Under the pieces are notes generated by a model. The model had not been told where the DNA came from. It worked only from the letters and a program-made list of their open reading frames with translations, and did no database searches. Position numbers and translations under genes: made by a program. From IMG/VR virus record IMGVR_UViG_2877274432_000004: DNA of 8,353 bases. One strand, written 5' to 3'. Of the stretch, positions 1 to 8,353 are shown piece by piece (the stretch's first letter is position 1; every line of letters begins with the position of its first letter). The DNA comes from a virus (Duplodnaviria > Heunggongvirae > Uroviricota > Caudoviricetes).

Positions 1-1266
1 GTGACCAAAAAAACTAAGTCCTTATCACCAGCAGCGATAAAAAGCCTCCAGCGAAAAGCCAGCAACGAAAAAAAGGACCTTTTCATCACTGACGGCGAAG
101 GGCTGGAACTGGTGATTAAGCACAAAAGCGCCTCTTGCTTGTGGCGTTACCGCTACTACAAGCCACACACAAAAAAACGGGCCATGTTAAGCATTGGCGC
201 ATATCCAGAAATAAGCATTGCGGGCGCGCGAAAGATAAAAGACGAATACAGGGCGCTTCTTTCTGGTGGCATTGACCCAAAAGAGCACAGAGAGAAACAG
301 CGCCTTAGTGAAGTGATGAAGAGAGAGAACACCTTCAGGCATGTAGCTACGCTTTGGTTTGAACTTAAAAAAGGGCAAGGACTCGCAGAAGGCACACTAC
401 GCGATACATGGCGCTCGCTGGAGCGTAATGTATTCCCGTCAGTCGGCAACAGACCAGTAGCAGACCTGATCGCAAGCAACTTCATCGAAGCATTAAAACC
501 ATTAGCCGCCCAGGGGAAATTAGATACCGTCAGAAGAACGGCGCAGCGAATCAATGAGGTCATGTATTACGCCGTTAATACCGGAATGATTACCGCGAAT
601 GCGGCATCACAGATAAACAAGGCATTTAACGCGCCGAGCGCTAAGAACATGCCAGCAATACGCCCTGAAGAACTCCCCGATTTTATGCAGAAGCTGGCAA
701 CGGCACGAGTGGAACGACAAACGCGACTGGTTATTGAGTGGCAGTTACTGACAATTTGCCGACCAGGTGAAGCAGCTGGCGCGCGCTGGTGTGAGATTGA
801 TTTTGAGGCGAAGGAATGGCGCATACCAGAGCACAGACTTAAACAACGCAGGGAACACGTAATACCACTCTCGAAGCAGGCGTTAGCCATTCTGGATGTC
901 ATGAAGCCAATAAGCGGTCATCGTGAGTTTATATTTCCACACAACAGCGACCCGCAGCGCCCTATGTGCACACAAACAGCAAACGCAGCAATAAAACGCA
1001 TGGGTTTTGGTCGGCGGCTGGTTGCTCATGGCTTGCGCTCAATAGCAAGTACCGCACTTAACGAGCAAGGTTTTGACTCTGACGTAATCGAGGCGGCATT
1101 GTCACACATAGACAAAAACGAGGTTCGCCGCGCGTACAACCGCTCAACCTATCTCGAGCAGCGACGCCCGTTAATGGCGTGGTGGGGGAATTTTGTAGAG
1201 GCAGCCGCAAGCGGGAGCGTAAGCGCCACAGGTGGCTATCGTGGGTTAAAAATGGTTAACGGTTAA
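1..1266 (+). CDS. int: Tyrosine recombinase / site-specific integrase, P4-type; possibly 5'-partial because the ORF starts with GTG at window position 1
   Basis: 421-codon ORF. C-terminal catalytic signatures: H-G-L-R in VAHGLRSIAS (nt ~1021-1050) and the nucleophile Tyr in RRAYNRSTY (nt ~1126-1152). N-terminal region (FITDGEGLELVIK ... WRYRYY) resembles the P4-integrase arm-binding domain. Recognised by eye, not searched. Confidence 0.9.
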   Translation: MTKKTKSLSPAAIKSLQRKASNEKKDLFITDGEGLELVIKHKSASCLWRYRYYKPHTKKRAMLSIGAYPEISIAGARKIKDEYRALLSGGIDPKEHREKQRLSEVMKRENTFRHVATLWFELKKGQGLAEGTLRDTWRSLERNVFPSVGNRPVADLIASNFIEALKPLAAQGKLDTVRRTAQRINEVMYYAVNTGMITANAASQINKAFNAPSAKNMPAIRPEELPDFMQKLATARVERQTRLVIEWQLLTICRPGEAAGARWCEIDFEAKEWRIPEHRLKQRREHVIPLSKQALAILDVMKPISGHREFIFPHNSDPQRPMCTQTANAAIKRMGFGRRLVAHGLRSIASTALNEQGFDSDVIEAALSHIDKNEVRRAYNRSTYLEQRRPLMAWWGNFVEAAASGSVSATGGYRGLKMVNG

Positions 1267-1270
1267 GGGC

Positions 1271-2167
1271 ATGACAAACAAAAAGATAAACCTTCCTGAA
1301 AGGGATTATTACCCGTTAGACAAGGCAGCCAGAAGGCTTGGGTGTGACGTTGATGATTTGATTCACTTCATCGCTACAGGGAAGATGTGTTTTTGGTACC
1401 GTCATCACATAGACGAGGTTTTGACATTACATAATTATAAAAACGCATTTAATAGTGTATCAGCATCAGATTATTATTATGAAAATGATGAAGGCGTATT
1501 CATCAGAGCAACCGACATATTAAAATTACTTGAATTCTCATCTTTTGGTGAAAAAATAATAACCGATGAAGAACAGCTAACGGAAAAGATATTTTTTAAT
1601 TGCTGTGGCGGTTATTCTGAAACAGATATTTTTATATACAACTATCATGGATATAAACAAAGAAAAATCAGAACACAGTTACCACATAAAATCAGGGTTG
1701 TGGCTTCAGGACTTTTACAGGTATTTAATACAAGCATTGATATAGAGAATCTATCAAATGACGTCACAGATTGTTATGTGCGACGCATCGTTATAGCAGA
1801 TAAAGGAAAAGAACCAAAGATAACAATAAATTTATATGGCAAAACAATAAATATTAGTGACATTTTCATCTCAAAAGAAGAGATAAAAATAGTAATGAAC
1901 GGCGGCAGACAACCAGGAGATATGGTAAAGGATTTTTCAGATAAACACGCCTTGTCGCATTCGCAGAGTAAGAAAACAACCAATCTTCAGGCCAGAGTTA
2001 TCAAAAGACTAATCACCGCCATAGCCGGAGAAGAAGAGGCAGCAAACCCAAGAAGAGCGCTTGAGAACGGTCACAGCAAGTTAAGCCGCGCACTAACCAA
2101 AGCAGGGGTTGAAATTGGCGCAACCCCTTCATCTGTTGGTAAGTGGCTTGCAGACGTTGACGACTGA
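1271..2167 (+). CDS. Hypothetical protein, 298 aa, AT-rich cargo gene directly downstream of int; possible N-terminal HTH; function unknown
   Basis: Long ORF starting 4 nt after the int stop (weak SD AAGGG). Central part about 22-28% G+C in hand-counted 60-nt samples (1441-1500, 1801-1860) versus about 48% in int (1021-1080). Followed by a strong intrinsic terminator. No family recognised. Confidence 0.7.
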   Translation: MTNKKINLPERDYYPLDKAARRLGCDVDDLIHFIATGKMCFWYRHHIDEVLTLHNYKNAFNSVSASDYYYENDEGVFIRATDILKLLEFSSFGEKIITDEEQLTEKIFFNCCGGYSETDIFIYNYHGYKQRKIRTQLPHKIRVVASGLLQVFNTSIDIENLSNDVTDCYVRRIVIADKGKEPKITINLYGKTINISDIFISKEEIKIVMNGGRQPGDMVKDFSDKHALSHSQSKKTTNLQARVIKRLITAIAGEEEAANPRRALENGHSKLSRALTKAGVEIGATPSSVGKWLADVDD

Positions 2168-2304: not shown

Positions 2305-2508
2305 ATGAACATCACAGAAAAGAAAATCCTTACAAAACGAGAAGTCGCAAATCTTCTTCGCCTTAGTACAACAAGCATTGACACAATGGTTAAGGCTGGT
2401 GAGTTTATTCCTGGCTTTAAGCGTGGATTGCGTCGCGTTGGCTGGTTTGAGGATGAGGTGAAATCATGGCTTGAGAAGAAAGTAGAGGAGCGTTATCAGC
2501 AGGAATAA
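2305..2508 (+). CDS. alpA: AlpA-family (prophage CP4-57-type) HTH transcriptional regulator / excision activator
   Basis: 67-aa ORF with SD AAAGGAAAG upstream. Sequence pattern (REVANLLRLS ... VGWFEDEVKSWL) is typical of AlpA-type small DNA-binding proteins. Position after int matches CP4-57-like and PICI-like islands. Confidence 0.8.
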   Translation: MNITEKKILTKREVANLLRLSTTSIDTMVKAGEFIPGFKRGLRRVGWFEDEVKSWLEKKVEERYQQE

Positions 2509-2851
2509 TAAATTTCCATGTGTGACATATAAAAGCCACCAGCGCAGAAAATAAAACGCCTCACGTTATGCAAAACGGGTTAACCATCGTGATGCCTTGC
2601 CGCATTCAATTAACGGCAGGTAAAAAAATACCCGCAATGCAATAACACTACGGGCCATTAACGTAATATAAGGAGTTAACCGATGTGTATTGTATACAGT
2701 CGTGTGCATATTGTCACAGGCAACAGGCATCCGCGCCAAATACCCGCCAGAGAAAATCAGTTGATCGCCAGTATCAAAAATGGCTATGATTCCCGCACAC
2801 CTTATAAAACGGGTGTCGGGATTAGGACCCCGCTGACAATCGAGGCGATAC

Positions 2852-2874
2852 AGACGCCGAACGCGTCTTTTTTT
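2852..2874 (+). terminator. Intrinsic terminator-like hairpin plus U-run upstream of the first structured leader
   Basis: AGACGC-CGAAC-GCGTCT hairpin (2852-2868) followed by a 7-T run (2868-2874). It lies inside an open frame that starts at ATG 2683. Confidence 0.5.
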
Positions 2875-2933
2875 GTATCGGCGCACACGCACACCTTATC
2901 AATGGTGGGCTGTATGGGGCTGACTTCGGTCAG

Positions 2934-2955
2934 GCTGGTTCCCTTGATTGCCAGT
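2934..2955 (+). promoter_or_regulatory. Leader hairpin 1 (stem GCTGG/CCAGT, 12-nt loop) whose loop is complementary to the SD region of the downstream small ORF; candidate antisense/anti-SD RNA element
   Basis: Loop 9-mer CCTTGATTG (2942-2950) is the exact reverse complement of CAATCAAGG (3020-3028), which overlaps the SD AAGGAGG of the ORF starting at 3040. The stem and a downstream AACCCTGT block are conserved in the paralogous unit. Confidence 0.4.
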
Positions 2956-3039
2956 AGTCCTAACCCTGTACAGTCCACCGCCAGCGAGTTTAGGACCTCC
3001 GGCGGTGGTTACATTCCATCAATCAAGGAGGCTGCCATC

Positions 3040-3228: not shown

Positions 3229-3412
3229 AAACATGTTGCTCGCCTCTTCTTTCGGGCTGTATGATGCCGGAGTCGTCCACATGGCGACCGGGTTTGACAG
3301 CCTGAATACTACAGCGGACAGCCGCTTACATTCCGATATGCGGTTTTTTTGTGTCCGTAAGCCTACCCATACCCGCATTATGGCGGGGCGTAACGGGGGA
3401 GCCTTTGCGCTC

Positions 3413-3433
3413 GCTGGTTCCTGTAGTGCCAGT
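3413..3433 (+). promoter_or_regulatory. Leader hairpin 2 (same stem GCTGG/CCAGT, different loop) complementary to the SD region of the second small ORF
   Basis: Loop CCTGTAGTG (3420-3428) is the exact reverse complement of CACTACAGG (3496-3504), overlapping SD ACAGGAG of the ORF starting at 3515. Pairing extends to 13 bp with one G-U (3416-3428 versus 3496-3508). Confidence 0.4.
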
Positions 3434-3514
3434 CTGTCAACCCTGTTACGTCTCGCCACCATGTTTGACAGCGTAGTAGCGAGACTCCTTAATTTCACTA
3501 CAGGAGCCTTTCAC

Positions 3515-6719: not shown

Positions 6720-6832
6720 GCACAGGACAGGAACAGTCAGCCGGATTTTCTGATTGTGTGCGTGTATATCGTTTTATCGCGACGTTAAATTAAACTGGTA
6801 TGACCAGATACACCAACATAAGAGGCTACCGG

Positions 6833-7240
6833 ATGAACGATCAAAACCATCACGCACCAAAAGACATTGAGCGGATTAAATTCATAAATGACATAGACGG
6901 CGGAGACAAACCCGGCGAGGCATGGTGTGATTCGCTTGCTGATATCGTGTCTCATTCAGTGGCTGAGCTTACCCGTAATGGCATGGAGCAGTCTGAAGCC
7001 TTCAGAATCGCCAAGCAGGTTGTTGCTGCAATCGCCTTCTATGCTGGTGGGCGAAGTCTTTACCTTCCAACAGGCAGATCACTTTTTGTAGCATTGCGCG
7101 AATACGAGATTTACCACAGGTGGGATAACGGCGAAAAATTACAGGAATTACGCAAAGAGTACGCAATATCAGAAACCCATATTTACGACATCATCCGGCG
7201 ACTAAGAAAGAAGCACGCCAATAAAATCACGCAAGACTAA
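6833..7240 (+). CDS. Mor-family (Mu middle-operon-regulator-like) transcriptional activator
   Basis: 135-aa ORF from ATG 6833 (SD AGAGG, 7-nt spacer); alternative start at 6800. C-terminal HTH-like region LREYEIYHRWDNGEKLQELRKEYAISETHIYDIIRRL is typical of Mor/C-type activators. Confidence 0.7.
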   Translation: MNDQNHHAPKDIERIKFINDIDGGDKPGEAWCDSLADIVSHSVAELTRNGMEQSEAFRIAKQVVAAIAFYAGGRSLYLPTGRSLFVALREYEIYHRWDNGEKLQELRKEYAISETHIYDIIRRLRKKHANKITQD

Positions 7241-7374
7241 CCACAGACACCAGCAGCAACCGTTATATTTGCGCCGCTATCGCAAAAATCCCCTTTCAGG
7301 GCATCCACTGATGCTACAAAACACCAAAACGCATCAGAGAGCGAATCAGGCGCTTTAATGGTGATTTGTTTTTT

Positions 7375-7440
7375 GTGAAAAAAGGTGAAAGAAGCTGATT
7401 TTTGTGAAATTAAGCGAAATCACGTGAAATCAGGTGAAAT
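7375..7440 (+). repeat. Array of six (G)TGAAA(T) direct repeats with roughly 10-bp phasing; candidate protein-binding array (regulatory or packaging)
   Basis: GTGAAA 7375, GGTGAAAG 7384, TGTGAAAT 7403, GCGAAAT 7414, CGTGAAAT 7423, GGTGAAAT 7433. Non-coding: stops in all frames. Confidence 0.5.
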
Positions 7441-7516
7441 AATGATACCCGTTCATCTGGTGCTACCAGACGAAACAGACTTTACCCACGCATAACGCAT
7501 GATTACTATTTTGCCT

Positions 7517-7616
7517 GGCTGTATGGTGTACTCTTAATCGGTAAAGCGGCACCCGCTTGTATAGCTTCCAGAAAGCGGGATGTTTATGTGGGTTCGACCC
7601 CCACCACCAGCAACCA
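7517..7616 (+). other. tRNA-like element, copy 1 (degenerate 5' half; intact T-arm plus acceptor 3' strand)
   Basis: T-stem GTGGG (7588-7592) / CCCAC (7600-7604) with T-loop TTCGACC, followed by CACCAGCA. Shares a ~33-nt block with copy 2. Not a canonical tRNA. Confidence 0.3.
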
Positions 7617-7635
7617 ACAACCTCATTGCTTTTTT

Positions 7636-7717
7636 GCTGGTGTACGCTCAACGGGTAGAGCCGGTGCCAGCCTGTACAGGCTGATCATGTATGCGGGTTC
7701 GACCCCCGCCACCAGCA
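7636..7717 (+). other. tRNA-like element, copy 2: acceptor, D-arm and T-arm are tRNA-like but the anticodon arm is replaced by a perfect 16-nt palindrome
   Basis: Acceptor GCTGGTG (7636-7642) pairs with CACCAGC (7710-7716). D-arm GCTC-AACGGGTA-GAGC. T-arm GCGGG-TTCGACC-CCCGC (7693-7709). Central CAGCCTGTACAGGCTG is a perfect palindrome rather than a 7-nt anticodon loop. No encoded CCA. Confidence 0.35.
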
Positions 7718-7921
7718 CACCAAAACGAGCGCCACATCAACCAGCATTAAAACCGCCCTAAAACCATTTTCAAACTTTCGACAGCGCATACATGAACGCC
7801 ATCGGTTTGCATGTGCACATTGATACCCGTTATCGACGATCAAACAGCAAGGGTATCTTTTTCAAAAAAGGCATACAAAAAGGCATACAAAACGAAAATC
7901 AAAAACACATAATTAATATAA

Positions 7922-8353
7922 ATCAATGGAATAACCAATCAATTCATAGACATCCCGGGTCTGAAATTGCCGCTGTTTGACGGTGGACGGTTGAATGCCA
8001 ATCTCGAAGGCACGCGCGCCGCCAGCAACATGATGATTGAACGTTACAACCAGTCAGTACTGAACGCGGTGCGTGACGTTGCCGTCAACGGCACGCGTCT
8101 GCAAACGCTCAACGACGAGCGAGAAATGCAGGCTGAACACGTGGAAGCAACGCGCTTCACCCAGCGCGCTGCCGAGGCCGCCTATCAGCGCGGCTTAACC
8201 AGCCGCTTACAGGCCACTGAAGCCCGGTTGCCAGTACTTGCCGAAGAGATGTCATTACTGATGCTGGACAGCCGCCGGGTGATCCAAAGCATTCAGTTGA
8301 TGAAATCGCTGGGCGGCGGGTATCAGGCGGCTCCCGTCGTCGAGAAAAAATAA
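7922..8353 (+). pseudogene. 3' fragment of a TolC-family (OMF/NodT-type) outer-membrane efflux protein gene; 5' part absent from this locus, apparently displaced by the island
   Basis: Frame open from 7922 (after TAA at 7919-7921); the ORF track's first start is TTG at 7967. Translation (IDIPGLKLPLFDGGRLNANLEG ... LMKSLGGGYQAAPVVEKK) matches the C-terminal region of outer-membrane efflux factors. Upstream is AT-rich non-coding DNA, so the gene has no N-terminal two-thirds here. Confidence 0.75.

What the first reader, a model, noticed from the sequence alone, without database searches (positions are those of the whole stretch)
7740..8353. Island junction inside an outer-membrane efflux gene: only the 3' third of a TolC-family gene is present
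Seen in sequence: an OMF-like reading frame is open only from 7922 and runs to the stop at 8353. Immediately upstream is AT-rich non-coding DNA with a tandem AGGCATACAAAA x2 repeat (7869-7892) and no OMF-like coding in any frame. Established knowledge: P4-type integrases usually target tRNA or tmRNA genes, and their int gene sits next to the att site. Inference: either this island integrated into (or deleted part of) a protein-coding efflux gene, or the tRNA-like block at 7517-7717 marks an older att site and the efflux gene was truncated by a separate event. Either way an efflux component is inactivated.
Basis: partly seen in the sequence, partly recalled or inferred. Interest (0 to 1): 0.45.

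Follow-up and report, generated by a model that had tools for sequence, protein, structure and literature searches.

The report
Satellite island splitting efflux gene mdtP
The region is the right-hand attachment site of an 8.2-kb phage-satellite-like island that has cleanly split the E. coli/Shigella efflux gene mdtP; this is an ordinary kind of event, but the island's closest relatives insert into a tRNA gene, so it shows a recent change of target.

Summary
Window 7951-8353 is the last 403 nt of mdtP (nt 1065-1467; 100% identical to intact E. coli mdtP). The tandem repeat and the AT-rich non-coding stretch are real.

The missing 5' part is not lost. In the record identical to the window (CP012735.1), mdtP nt 1-1073 lies 206 bp upstream of int. 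A 9-bp core, CATCCCGGG, is duplicated at both junctions.

Window 7740-7950 is the P arm of attR. The doubled AAGGCATAC motif is a likely integrase arm-type site, because an identical co-oriented pair sits in the attL arm.

Integrases 72-98% identical all sit at tRNA-Ile2 (ileX). The mdtP-type attL still begins with CCACCA, a tRNA 3' end. So mdtP is a derived target.

Identical islands sit in mdtP alleles that diverge from about 50-60 bp outside each junction, so integration here has recurred.

attR carries small junction deletions. These match the published "attR damage" of PICIs.

The tRNA-like block (7518-7717) is not an old att site. It is a structured tRNA-like RNA family shared with Mu-like prophages.

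Verdict: a new member of a known kind, of moderate interest.

The parts
1..1266 (+). int: 421-aa tyrosine integrase of the island; it reads inward from attL, which lies just left of the window
   Evidence: Pfam Arm-DNA-bind_3 + Phage_int_M + Phage_integrase. NCBIfam NF007246, 525 bits. The exact protein occurs on 574 contigs, and all 10 places shown are in mdtP.
2305..2508 (+). AlpA-like HTH protein (candidate excisionase/activator)
   Evidence: Pfam Phage_AlpA 23 bits (cutoff 21) and HTH_17. PHROG 66 'excisionase and transcriptional regulator', E=4.7e-12.
7518..7612 (+). tRNA-like unit 1 (degenerate 5' acceptor strand, enlarged central arm)
   Evidence: Annotated tRNA-OTHER in relatives. Rfam tRNA 20.6 bits. 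Own covariance model hits 7522-7612 at 75 bits.
7636..7717 (+). tRNA-like unit 2 (7-bp acceptor, D and T arms; the anticodon arm is replaced by a 5-bp stem with the 6-nt loop TGTACA)
   Evidence: Rfam tRNA 37.5 bits, above the gathering score of 29. ARAGORN finds no tRNA. Covariation shown. Covariance model 83 bits.
7740..7950 (.). P arm of attR: island-derived non-coding DNA between the tRNA-like block and the crossover core
   Evidence: Homology with islands at ileX runs up to about 7913-7952 and stops there. GC is 26-45%. There is no significant promoter or terminator on the + strand.
7865..7888 (+). Doubled arm-type motif AAAAAGGCATAC x2 (probable binding sites for the integrase arm domain)
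   Evidence: Exact 12-nt tandem repeat. An identical co-oriented pair lies in the attL arm, and an inverted third copy lies before int. The motif starts 87 bp upstream and 133 bp downstream of the core centre. It co-varies with integrase lineage: GGTATAC in the Serratia relative.
7922..7950 (+). In-frame island-derived codons (INGITNQFID); not mdtP
   Evidence: TAA at 7919-7921. The mdtP DNA match starts at 7951. NQF.D.PG partly mimics MdtP RQFNFIPG because attP resembles attB.
7940..7950 (.). Core-proximal P-side half-site CAATTCATAGA, similar to mdtP CAGTTCAACTT and to the ileX T-loop region GGTTCAAGTC
   Evidence: Comparison of attR, attL and attB sequences.
7951..7959 (.). Crossover core CATCCCGGG (mdtP nt 1065-1073), duplicated at attL
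   Evidence: mdtP nt 1-1073 lie at L012 8722-9794 and nt 1065-1467 lie at window 7951-8353. The join is identical in all attL copies.
7951..8353 (+). 3' fragment of mdtP (nt 1065-1467; codons 356-488 plus stop)
   Evidence: 100% identical to intact mdtP of CFSAN004176. NCBIfam MdtP equivalog positions 351-488.

Best explanation
Window 7740-8353 is attR of an 8.16-kb integrative element of the Gram-negative PICI (phage satellite) type. The element inserted by its own tyrosine integrase into codon 356-358 of the chromosomal efflux gene mdtP.

Layout of the element: int, AlpA-like gene, Ash/Icd-like genes with C4/isrK immunity RNAs, DUF4222, RepA-like helicase, SSB, PerC, Mor and tandem tRNA-like RNAs.

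How the site is built:
- Recombination took place between attP (...AGA-CATCCCGGG-CCACCAAATCG...) and an attB inside mdtP (...CTT-CATCCCGGG-TCTGAAATTG...).
- The 9-bp core CATCCCGGG is therefore present at both ends.
- 7740-7950 is the island's P arm. It carries a doubled AAGGCATAC arm-type site, mirrored by a second co-oriented pair in the P' arm next to int.
- 7951-8353 is the displaced 3' 27% of mdtP.

This attB is a derived target.
- The integrase clade ancestrally uses the 3' end of tRNA-Ile2 (ileX).
- The mdtP-type attP still carries the tRNA's CCACCA end and a terminator that in ileX relatives follows the tRNA.
- It differs from the ileX-type attP essentially in the core: CAGCAGGG became CATCCCGGG, which is the mdtP sequence.
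- The most likely origin is a secondary-site integration at an ileX-like sequence in mdtP (AGTTCAACTTCATCCCGGG versus GGTTCAAGTCCAGCAGGGG). Excision then fixed the new core in attP and redirected the lineage to mdtP. I infer this by analogy with lambda saf mutants, known to me but not read here.

Consequence: mdtP is split into a 358-codon fragment plus HQIDTK* and a fragment with no start, so the MdtNOP outer-membrane component is presumably non-functional while the island is in place.

Shown: the anatomy, the duplication, recurrent independent integration, and the relatives' targets. Inferred: integrase catalysis, the order of the retargeting events, and loss of function.
For: 1. Clean split with a 9-bp duplication in the record that is 100% identical to the window, and the same architecture in 12 fully compared loci.

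2. attL is invariant...CATCCCGGG|CCACCAAATCGATAC..., in all 16 mdtP loci read.

3. Islands that are 93% identical and carry 96%-identical integrases sit at ileX, with attL = ...CAGCAGGGGCCACCA|AATCGACAC and attR = ...AGACAGCAGGG(G)CCACCA|gatat. Integrases at 72-75% identity in Salmonella, E. coli and Serratia also sit at mug-ileX with the same join.

4. Arm motif: the only four exact AAGGCATAC copies in 21 kb are the two pairs in the two arms. The geometry of 87 bp upstream and 133 bp downstream of the core centre matches the 81/132-bp doubled-motif layout reported for HE-PICI attP sites (PMC10111431). The motif co-varies with integrase lineage.

5. Recurrent integration.
- Islands in L015, L013 and L016 are 100.0% identical, yet the flanks of L015 differ from those of L013/L016 by 30 and 20 differences per 1.5 kb. 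The differences start 59 bp left and 51 bp right of the junctions.
- L002 and L014 have identical flanks, but their islands are only 95.8% identical.
- Two genomes carry both an ileX copy and an mdtP copy.

6. Site against allele: all-'m' integrase alleles (P0121, P0123, P0133 and the L001 allele) are at mdtP. All-'i' and four mosaic alleles are at ileX.

7. Element type: int + AlpA + C4/isrK + replication genes + PerC/Mor, with all ORFs on one strand and no structural genes. This fits the four-zone GN-PICI organisation (PMC10111431; PMC6092414).
Against: - No excised (attP) form was found in IMG/VR or JGI metagenome contigs, so current mobility is inferred only from population data.
- Helper-phage dependence, which defines a PICI, is untested.
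- The similarity of mdtP attB to ileX (13 of 19 positions left of the crossover) was not tested against chance.
- Mosaic integrases that carry most 'mdtP-type' residues still sit at ileX. No protein determinant of the new specificity is identified, and the claim that the attP core alone decides the site is not proven.
- Loci were sampled from the longest contigs and are not a random or phylogenetically corrected sample.
- The order of events (secondary-site capture, then a dedicated lineage) is a reconstruction.
Confidence: 0.82

Rival explanations
1. One accidental off-target integration by an ileX-specific integrase. The mdtP::island allele was then inherited vertically or spread between strains by homologous recombination of the flanks. 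On this reading mdtP is not a real, reused attB.
For: The integrases are 96-98% identical to ileX-located ones, and mosaic alleles exist. Off-target events by PICI integrases are documented (PMC10111431). Only 2 of 5426 complete E. coli genomes carry the mdtP copy.
Against: Identical islands lie in mdtP alleles whose differences begin 51-59 bp from each junction, and identical flanks hold islands only 95.8% identical. Every mdtP-located island has the mdtP core in its inferred attP, plus a linked P' change (GATAC versus GACAC). The exact integrase is on 574 contigs, and 10 of 10 places shown are in mdtP.
Confidence: 0.07
2. The tRNA-like block at 7517-7717 is the remnant of an older tRNA att site, and mdtP was truncated by a separate deletion or rearrangement.
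For: tRNA-like sequence lies about 230 bp inside the island end, and integrases of this type do target tRNAs.
Against: No mdtP sequence is missing, and a 9-bp duplication is present. The units are complete cloverleaf-like molecules with both acceptor strands, not 3' fragments. They do not resemble ileX. They occur as 2-3 tandem copies in islands at three different att sites, including one with a 30%-identical integrase. Homologues sit between head genes of Mu-like prophages.
Confidence: 0.02
3. The insertion is an adaptive, reversible switch ('regulated gene integrity'). The island keeps MdtNOP off and restores it on excision, or uses attR damage to punish loss of the island.
For: attP carries no replacement for the mdtP 3' end. 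In the window's strain both halves are open and the repeats are perfect, so precise excision would rebuild a 488-codon mdtP. The concept is documented for other integrative elements, including HE-PICIs (PMC10111431).
Against: mdtP is independently broken by an A7-to-A6 frameshift in island-free contigs. In the window's source an IS1 abuts mdtN and ytcA is absent. Both point to a dispensable operon. Many attR copies carry 1-4-nt deletions that would leave a frameshift after excision. There is no evidence of regulated excision.
Confidence: 0.08

Closest known systems
Gram-negative phage-inducible chromosomal islands (GN-PICIs, e.g. EcCICFT073; four-zone organisation of Tommasini, Mageeney & Williams 2023, PMC10111431; Fillol-Salom et al. 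2018, PMC6092414)
   Same: About 8 kb. int reads inward at the left end. An AlpA-like gene follows. The Ash/Icd ('Bro') zone carries C4/isrK immunity RNAs. A replication zone holds helicase/primase-like and SSB genes, and a right-hand accessory zone holds PerC. All genes are on one strand, and there are no capsid, tail or lysis genes. A doubled arm motif lies about 80-90 bp upstream and about 132 bp downstream of the attP centre. The attR fragment is 'damaged'.
   Different: The arm motif sequence differs (AAGGCATAC, not TGTATTGC). The late zone holds a Mor homologue plus tandem tRNA-like RNAs rather than lambdoid late genes or a recognisable cos site. The target is mdtP, which is not among the reported PICI sites I could find. 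Helper dependence is untested.
PICIs at tRNA-Ile2 (ileX), mentioned in PMC10111431, and the ileX-located sister islands found here (L004, L005, L061)
   Same: 93% identical DNA, 96-98% identical integrase, the same arm motifs, the same P' arm starting CCACCAAATCG, and the same attR deletion phenomenon.
   Different: The core is CAGCAGGG(G)CCACCA, a 15-16-bp identity block that rebuilds the tRNA. In the mdtP-type the core is CATCCCGGG, 9 bp, with no replacement of the gene's 3' end. The ileX insertion is phenotypically silent, whereas the mdtP insertion splits a gene.
Helper-embedded PICIs and their off-target events (PMC10111431)
   Same: A closely related integrase set has acquired a protein-coding target without a replacement sequence in attP, so integration disrupts the gene.
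   Different: The target here is a chromosomal housekeeping or accessory gene, not a prophage late gene. The ancestral site is a tRNA.
Lambda secondary-site integration and saf (site-affinity) mutants (Weisberg et al. 1983; from my own knowledge, not read here)
   Same: Integration at a site that resembles attB, followed by excision that transfers the secondary site's overlap sequence into attP, which raises affinity for that site.
   Different: Here this is inferred from natural variants only. The overlap length and the cleavage positions are unknown.
MdtNOP (SdsRQP) efflux system; MdtP outer-membrane factor, NCBIfam NF007390
   Same: The two fragments together cover model positions 1-488. 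The 3' part is 100% identical to intact mdtP.
   Different: The gene is interrupted at codon 356-358 by 8.16 kb.

Membership tests
MdtP / TolC-type outer-membrane factor (NF007390, PF02321) | Sequence match to the MdtP equivalog model and the OEP domain | tested here: met
   The fragment matches NF007390 positions 351-488 (268.7 bits) and PF02321 (E=7.5e-8). The upstream fragment in L012 matches positions 1-360 (752.9 bits).
MdtP / TolC-type outer-membrane factor (NF007390, PF02321) | One uninterrupted ORF of about 488 aa with a signal/lipobox and both OEP repeats | tested here: not met
   The gene is split by the island into 358 codons plus a 6-aa tail, and a 3' piece without start codon or RBS. 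It is a disrupted gene, not a functional member.
Tyrosine integrase, three-domain type (Arm-DNA-bind_3/DUF4102 + Phage_int_M + Phage_integrase), loosely 'P4-type' | Domain architecture | tested here: met
   All three Pfam domains are above cutoff. NF007246 scores 525 bits against a cutoff of 434.
Tyrosine integrase, three-domain type (Arm-DNA-bind_3/DUF4102 + Phage_int_M + Phage_integrase), loosely 'P4-type' | Catalytic residues (R, H-x-x-R, H/W, Y) | tested here: met
   R254, H343, R346, H369 and Y379 are invariant in the alignment, which includes a 30%-identical relative. The catalytic Lys was not assigned.
Tyrosine integrase, three-domain type (Arm-DNA-bind_3/DUF4102 + Phage_int_M + Phage_integrase), loosely 'P4-type' | Direct similarity to P4 Int itself | not tested
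   A tblastn search against phages gave Klebsiella and Vibrio phage integrases (46-55%) as the best hits. P4 was not among the listed rows.
Tyrosine integrase, three-domain type (Arm-DNA-bind_3/DUF4102 + Phage_int_M + Phage_integrase), loosely 'P4-type' | Catalyses attP x attB recombination at this site | not testable with these tools
   Only the products (attL, attR) and the empty site (attB) are seen. No attP junction was found in public contigs.
Gram-negative PICI (phage satellite) | Size, inward-reading int, alpA, unidirectional genes, replication module, no virion or lysis genes | tested here: met
   8.16 kb, with all annotated genes on the + strand. Int, AlpA-like (23 bits, just above the cutoff of 21), an AAA_25 helicase with primase/helicase PHROG hits, and SSB are present. 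There are no structural hits.
Gram-negative PICI (phage satellite) | Immunity RNAs (P4 CI/seqA relatives) in the Bro zone | tested here: met
   Two C4 hits (77.8 and 72.3 bits, GA 45). Two isrK hits: 59.2 bits (above GA 50) and 32.3 bits (below GA).
Gram-negative PICI (phage satellite) | Induction, replication and packaging that depend on a helper phage | not testable with these tools
   There is only indirect population evidence of mobility. Mor and the tRNA-like RNA are shared with Mu-like prophages, which is a lead, not a test.
tRNA gene (for 7518-7717) | Acceptor, D and T arms with tRNA-like conserved loops | tested here: met
   Rfam tRNA 37.5 bits for unit 2. 94% of stem cells are paired, and 8 of 16 pairs show compensatory changes, against 61% or less in slid controls.
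tRNA gene (for 7518-7717) | Canonical anticodon arm (5-bp stem, 7-nt loop) that gives a decoding identity | tested here: not met
   ARAGORN finds no tRNA in the window, the islands or the Mu-like prophages. The central arm is hypervariable in sequence and length. Unit 2 has a 6-nt loop. I file these as tRNA-like RNAs, not tRNAs.
Residual att site (tRNA 3' fragment left by an earlier integration) | Only the 3' part of a tRNA, identical to the target tRNA of the integrase | tested here: not met
   The units are full-length and unrelated to ileX, and they are present in elements with other integrases and in Mu-like phages.
Regulated gene integrity element | Precise excision restores an intact target ORF | tested here: met
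   This holds for the window's strain only. The 9-bp repeats are perfect and both halves are open. It does not hold for loci with 1-4-nt attR deletions.
Regulated gene integrity element | Excision is regulated and serves a cellular programme | not testable with these tools
   No data.

The most novel reading that the evidence does not exclude
The island may be a satellite of Mu-like (Sp18-type) transposable phages, not of lambdoid phages. It shares only two things with such prophages: a Mor-family activator (49% aa identity) and a tRNA-mimic RNA that lacks a decoding anticodon arm (81-85% nt identity).

In the phages this RNA sits, antisense, between the F-like and G-like head genes, even where F has diverged to 54% identity. 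The island carries it in 2-3 tandem copies at the position where PICIs normally carry their packaging signal.

If this is right, the tRNA-like units are an undescribed satellite-helper RNA. It could be a decoy for tRNA-directed host or phage factors, a processing or packaging signal, or a regulator. The mdtP/ileX pair of nearly identical elements would also be a natural before-and-after of integrase retargeting in which the attP core, not the protein, sets the site.
Probability: 0.3. Interest if true: 0.7.

Novelty: new member of a known kind. Interest (0 to 1): 0.4.

Why it matters
For the gene itself the result is ordinary: one more mobile element inside one more dispensable gene, and it explains why mdtP is annotated as two pseudogene pieces in these strains.

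It matters more as a model of how site-specific integrases acquire new targets. Two island lineages are 93% identical and their integrases differ by as few as 8 residues. One uses a tRNA gene and the other a protein-coding gene. The inferred attP sites differ essentially by three changes in the core and one in the P' arm. The new attP still carries the now useless CCACCA tRNA end. That makes the question 'core sequence or protein?' directly testable by simple swap experiments.

The mdtP copies also show that the 'attR damage' phenomenon described for PICIs at tRNA genes goes with the integrase and attP, not with the tRNA context.

The practical consequence is that resistome tools which score mdtP presence will miscall these strains.

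Tried and rejected
1. Free attP junction. The pattern AGACA-N(3-6)-GGGCCACCAAATCG in IMG/VR gave one hit (L017). It is a chance match inside an unrelated phage coding region, with no blast similarity to the island. The mdtP-type attP pattern gave no hit in JGI metagenome contigs.

2. Possible excision scars. Seven island-free contigs have mdtP called as 358 + 128 aa, exactly as at the att site. The cause is an A7-to-A6 frameshift 26 nt upstream of an intact core, not a scar.

3. A protein determinant of the site. Eleven residues looked diagnostic in 3 versus 3 sequences, seven of them in the core-binding domain. Mosaic alleles then showed every one except T5/V5 in the 'mdtP state' at ileX. I dropped the claim that the core-binding domain co-evolved with the site.

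4. tRNA, tmRNA or Y-RNA identity of the block. ARAGORN finds nothing. The YrlA, permuted-tmRNA and tymovirus TLS hits are far below threshold and arise from the tandem arrangement.

5. Expression of the 3' fragment. There is no + strand promoter-like site and no RBS. The single - strand site is at chance level.

6. Defence cargo. PADLOC gave no hits for the unknown ORFs.

7. Literature. No paper in the searchable library links mdtP, yjcP or sdsP with an integrase att site or a PICI. None links tRNA-like RNAs with PICIs or Mu-like prophages. Williams 2002 (PMC100330) is not held.

8. The -1 junction allele as evidence of imprecise integration. L013 and L016 have identical flanks and islands yet differ by one G. 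That allele may therefore be slippage or an assembly error.
Full report
**What is in the sequence**

The frame opening at 7922 (after TAA at 7919-7921) runs to the stop at 8351-8353 and encodes an outer-membrane efflux C-terminus. It matches Pfam OEP and positions 351-488 of the 488-position NCBIfam MdtP equivalog. At the DNA level the match to E. coli mdtP starts at 7951. Window 7951-8353 equals mdtP nt 1065-1467, is 100% identical to strain CFSAN004176, and has a match in 5420 of 5426 complete E. coli genomes. So the fragment is 27% of the gene, and codons 7922-7950 are foreign DNA that is merely in frame. GC falls to 26% at 7850-7949.

**Where the rest of the gene is**

The exact integrase protein encoded at 1-1266 was looked up in public assemblies. 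All ten places shown have the order mdtN - mdtO - mdtP' - int - island - 'mdtP - fdhF. One of them, L012 (CP012735.1, GCA_001578125.1), is 100% identical to the whole window. There, mdtP nt 1-1073 lie at L012 8722-9794, ending 206 bp before int, and nt 1065-1467 are the window's 7951-8353. Nothing is deleted, and CATCCCGGG (nt 1065-1073) is present at both junctions. The upstream fragment reads through into the island for six codons (HQIDTK*). Two complete E. coli genomes show the same split.

**Anatomy of the att sites**

- attB (intact mdtP) is cgcCAGTTCAACTT-CATCCCGGG-TCTGAAATTG.
- attL is ...CTT-CATCCCGGG-CCACCAAATCGATAC... in all 16 mdtP loci read.
- attR in the window is ...CAATTCATAGA-CATCCCGGG-TCTGAAATTG.
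- The doubled AAGGCATAC motif starts 87 bp upstream of the core centre in attR. An identical co-oriented pair starts 133 bp downstream of the core centre in attL. An inverted one-mismatch copy lies between that pair and int.
- These are the only exact copies in the 21-kb locus.
- In integrase relatives the doubled motif and its inverted copy change together: GGCATAC/TATGCC in most, GGTATAC/TATACC in Serratia.
- The layout resembles the one reported for helper-embedded PICIs, which have a doubled motif 81 bp upstream and 132 bp downstream of the attP centre and which the authors proposed to bind the integrase arm domains (PMC10111431).
This is an inference.

**The target is derived from a tRNA target**

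- Six complete E. coli genomes carry an island 93% identical to the window at tRNA-Ile2 (ileX), between mug and nfeF. Its integrase is 96% identical.
- There, attL is the intact tRNA end ...GGTTCAAGTC-CAGCAGGGGCCACCA-AATCGACAC, and attR is ...AGTTCAAAGA-CAGCAGGG(G)CCACCA-gatat.
- Integrases at 72-75% identity from Salmonella, E. coli and Serratia also sit next to mug at this tRNA, with the same join. ARAGORN labels the tRNA Met/CAT.
- So ileX is the ancestral site.
- The mdtP-type attL begins with CCACCA, the tRNA's discriminator-CCA end, followed by the same hairpin-plus-T-run that follows the tRNA in ileX relatives. In mdtP these are vestiges.
- The inferred attP sites differ essentially in the core (CAGCA-GGG versus CATCCCGGG, the latter being mdtP sequence) and in one P' position (GACAC versus GATAC).
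- The mdtP site resembles the ileX T-loop and acceptor region (AGTTCAACTTCATCCCGGG versus GGTTCAAGTCCAGCAGGGG). I did not test this similarity against chance.
- The simplest history is a secondary-site integration followed by excision that carried the new core into attP, as in lambda saf mutants (my own knowledge).

**Is mdtP a reused site or a one-off?**

- Islands in L013, L015 and L016 are 100.0% identical over 8.3 kb.
- The flanks of L015 nevertheless differ from those of L013/L016 by 30 differences in the left 1.5 kb and 20 in the right 1.5 kb. The differences begin 59 bp and 51 bp from the junctions.
- The window's island is 99.9% identical to those of L008 and L009, whose flanks differ from 96 bp and 89 bp outward.
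- L002 and L014 have identical flanks, but their islands are only 95.8% identical.
- Two genomes carry both an ileX copy and an mdtP copy (L061 with L001; L063 with L011).
- These patterns fit repeated site-specific integration, not inheritance of one accident.

**What decides the site?**

In a 3 versus 3 comparison, eleven integrase residues separated the mdtP-located from the ileX-located alleles. I call the two states 'm' and 'i'. The 90% cluster also contains mosaic alleles, and four of them were located:

| Allele | Pattern over the 11 positions |
|---|---|
| P0001 | imiiimmmmmm |
| P0127 | iimmmmimiim |
| P0125 | iiiimiimiim |
| P0130 | iiiimmimiim |

All four are at ileX. The all-'m' alleles (P0121, P0123, P0133) are all at mdtP. 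Every position except residue 5 is therefore seen in the 'mdtP state' at ileX. P0001 differs from the window's integrase by only 8 residues. The site correlates perfectly with the attP core but not with any single core-binding or catalytic residue. This favours, without proving, the view that the core sets the target.

**Junction heterogeneity**

attL never varies, but attR does, exactly at the right edge of the core:

| attR junction | Loci |
|---|---|
| GGGTCTG | window/L012, L002, L016, L020, L022 |
| GGTCTG | L011, L013, L014, L015 |
| GGCTG | L007, L008, L009 |
| GGTTG | L001 |
| GGGAAATTG | L010 |

The ileX copies behave in the same way: GGGGCCACCA, GGGCCACCA and GGGACCA. This matches the 'damage' of attR tRNA fragments described as variable deletions starting at a fixed acceptor-stem position. 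It was reported for PICIs, including some at Ile2, and not for prophages (PMC10111431, citing Williams 2002, which I could not read). Here it also occurs when the target is not a tRNA. One caveat applies: the single-G variant also separates L013 from L016, which are otherwise identical, so it may be slippage or assembly error. In the window the junction is intact and both mdtP halves are open, so precise excision would rebuild mdtP. In loci with deletions it would leave a frameshift.

**What kind of element it is**

Left to right, all on the + strand:

- Integrase (Arm-DNA-bind_3, Phage_int_M, Phage_integrase).
- A 298-aa protein with no family.
- An AlpA-like HTH.
- Ash and Icd-like proteins, overlapping two C4 antisense-RNA matches (77.8 and 72.3 bits) and two isrK matches (one above and one below the gathering score).
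- DUF4222.
- An AAA_25 RepA-like helicase with primase/helicase PHROG matches.
- SSB.
- PerC.
- Mor.
- The tRNA-like units.

There are no virion, lysis or known defence genes. This is the Integration - Bro/immunity-RNA - Replication - Late layout described for Gram-negative PICIs (PMC10111431; PMC6092414). Helper dependence, the defining behaviour of a PICI, cannot be tested here.

**The tRNA-like block**

- Unit 2 (7636-7717) scores 37.5 bits with the Rfam tRNA model over its full length. Unit 1 (7518-7612) is weaker. ARAGORN calls neither.
- Relatives have two or three units.
- Homologues at 81-85% identity lie in Mu-like prophages, including those of O157:H7. They sit between the F-like head-morphogenesis gene and the G-like virion-morphogenesis gene, on the opposite strand, behind a plausible TTGCCT-16-TAAAAT promoter.
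- That position is conserved in phages whose F protein is only 54% identical.
- Across 13 distinct sequences the acceptor, D and T stems are 94% paired. Eight of 16 pairs show changes on both sides, against 61% or less paired when partners are slid. The region that replaces the anticodon arm is different in each lineage, with UUCG/UCCG-capped hairpins in the phage copies.
- Caveats: three of the 13 sequences are genuine phage tRNA-Ile(UAU) genes that share the T arm. The T arm was the search pattern. I also chose the 5' acceptor strand by complementarity, although it lies in a fixed register next to the conserved GTGTAC.
- The island and the Mu-like prophage share nothing else except Mor, at 49% identity.
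- This refutes the 'older att site' idea. It leaves an unexplained, apparently undescribed tRNA-like RNA that links this island family to Mu-like phages (searches found no report).

**Consequences for the host**

MdtP is an outer-membrane factor. A protein truncated at residue 358 lacks the last 130 residues, and the 3' piece has no start, RBS or signal peptide and no upstream promoter-like site. Loss of function is therefore likely, though inferred. The operon appears dispensable. Island-free contigs carry an independent A7-to-A6 frameshift in mdtP. In the window's own source an IS1 abuts mdtN and ytcA is missing.

**Verdict**

The feature is a new member of a known kind: a PICI-type island at a previously unreported attB. 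It has a well-documented recent switch from a tRNA target to a protein-coding target. Interest is moderate.

Noticed in passing
window 7518-7612 and 7636-7717; L028 8997-9076; L029 8999-9086; L002 12223-12522: Tandem tRNA-like RNAs with conserved, covarying acceptor, D and T arms but a hypervariable hairpin in place of the anticodon arm. Homologues lie antisense between the F-like and G-like head genes of Mu-like prophages (177 of 5426 E. coli genomes have a match). The position is conserved in phages whose F protein is only 54% identical. I found no description in Rfam or in the searchable literature.
   Followed up: partly
window 6800-7240 (Mor) versus L028 16280-16705: The island's last protein gene is a Mor-family late activator, 49% identical to the Mor of the Mu-like prophage. 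Mor and the tRNA-like RNA are the only things the two elements share, which hints at a Mu-like helper phage.
   Followed up: partly
window 2797-2985 and 3272-3463: Two successive isrK + C4 antisense-RNA modules (C4 at 77.8 and 72.3 bits; isrK at 59.2 and 32.3 bits) lie inside the Ash/Icd-like genes. This is a duplicated P4 CI/seqA-type RNA immunity unit.
   Followed up: no
window 7367-7442: Five GTGAAA repeats in two larger imperfect direct repeats lie between Mor and the tRNA-like units. They may be origin iterons or an activator-dependent promoter region.
   Followed up: no
attR junction, window 7957-7963 and equivalents in L001, L007-L016, L004, L005, L061: There are five different junction alleles (0, -1, -2 in two forms, and -4 nt) at the right edge of the core in mdtP copies. 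The ileX copies show 0, -1 and -3, while attL never varies. This matches the published 'attR damage' of PICIs, here seen outside a tRNA context.
   Followed up: partly
window 7913-7950 versus L002 12728-12765: The roughly 40 bp of the P arm next to the core exist in two very different versions: the window/L008/L009/L020 type, and the type shared by the other mdtP-located and all ileX-located islands. The arm motif and core are identical in both.
   Followed up: no
L018, L021, L023-L027 (island-free mdtP), about 26 nt upstream of the core: An independent A7-to-A6 frameshift splits mdtP into 358 + 128 aa calls in several assemblies or read sets. Either mdtP is recurrently pseudogenised or this homopolymer is error-prone.
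   Followed up: partly
L012 4788-5652 (left of the window's source region): An IS1 lies directly upstream of mdtN, ytcA is absent, and mdtO is 680 rather than 683 aa. The mdtNOP operon of the source strain is probably already degraded.
   Followed up: no
L005 1681-3105 and L061 73-1389: At ileX the island is often preceded by a second element with its own tyrosine recombinase, in tandem or back to back. JNEC-KY203 and GCA_904810485.1 carry an ileX copy and an mdtP copy in the same genome.
   Followed up: partly
window 1271-2167: A 298-aa ORF next to int has no Pfam, PHROG or PADLOC match. It lies in the segment (about 1405-1970) where the mdtP-type and ileX-type islands are too divergent for megablast, so it is a variable accessory slot.
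   Followed up: partly
window 7443-7453 / 7821-7831 and 7321-7331 / 7717-7727: Two exact 11-nt direct repeats (TGATACCCGTT and ACACCAAAACG) bracket the tRNA-like cassette. They may be chance, or traces of how the cassette was acquired.
   Followed up: no
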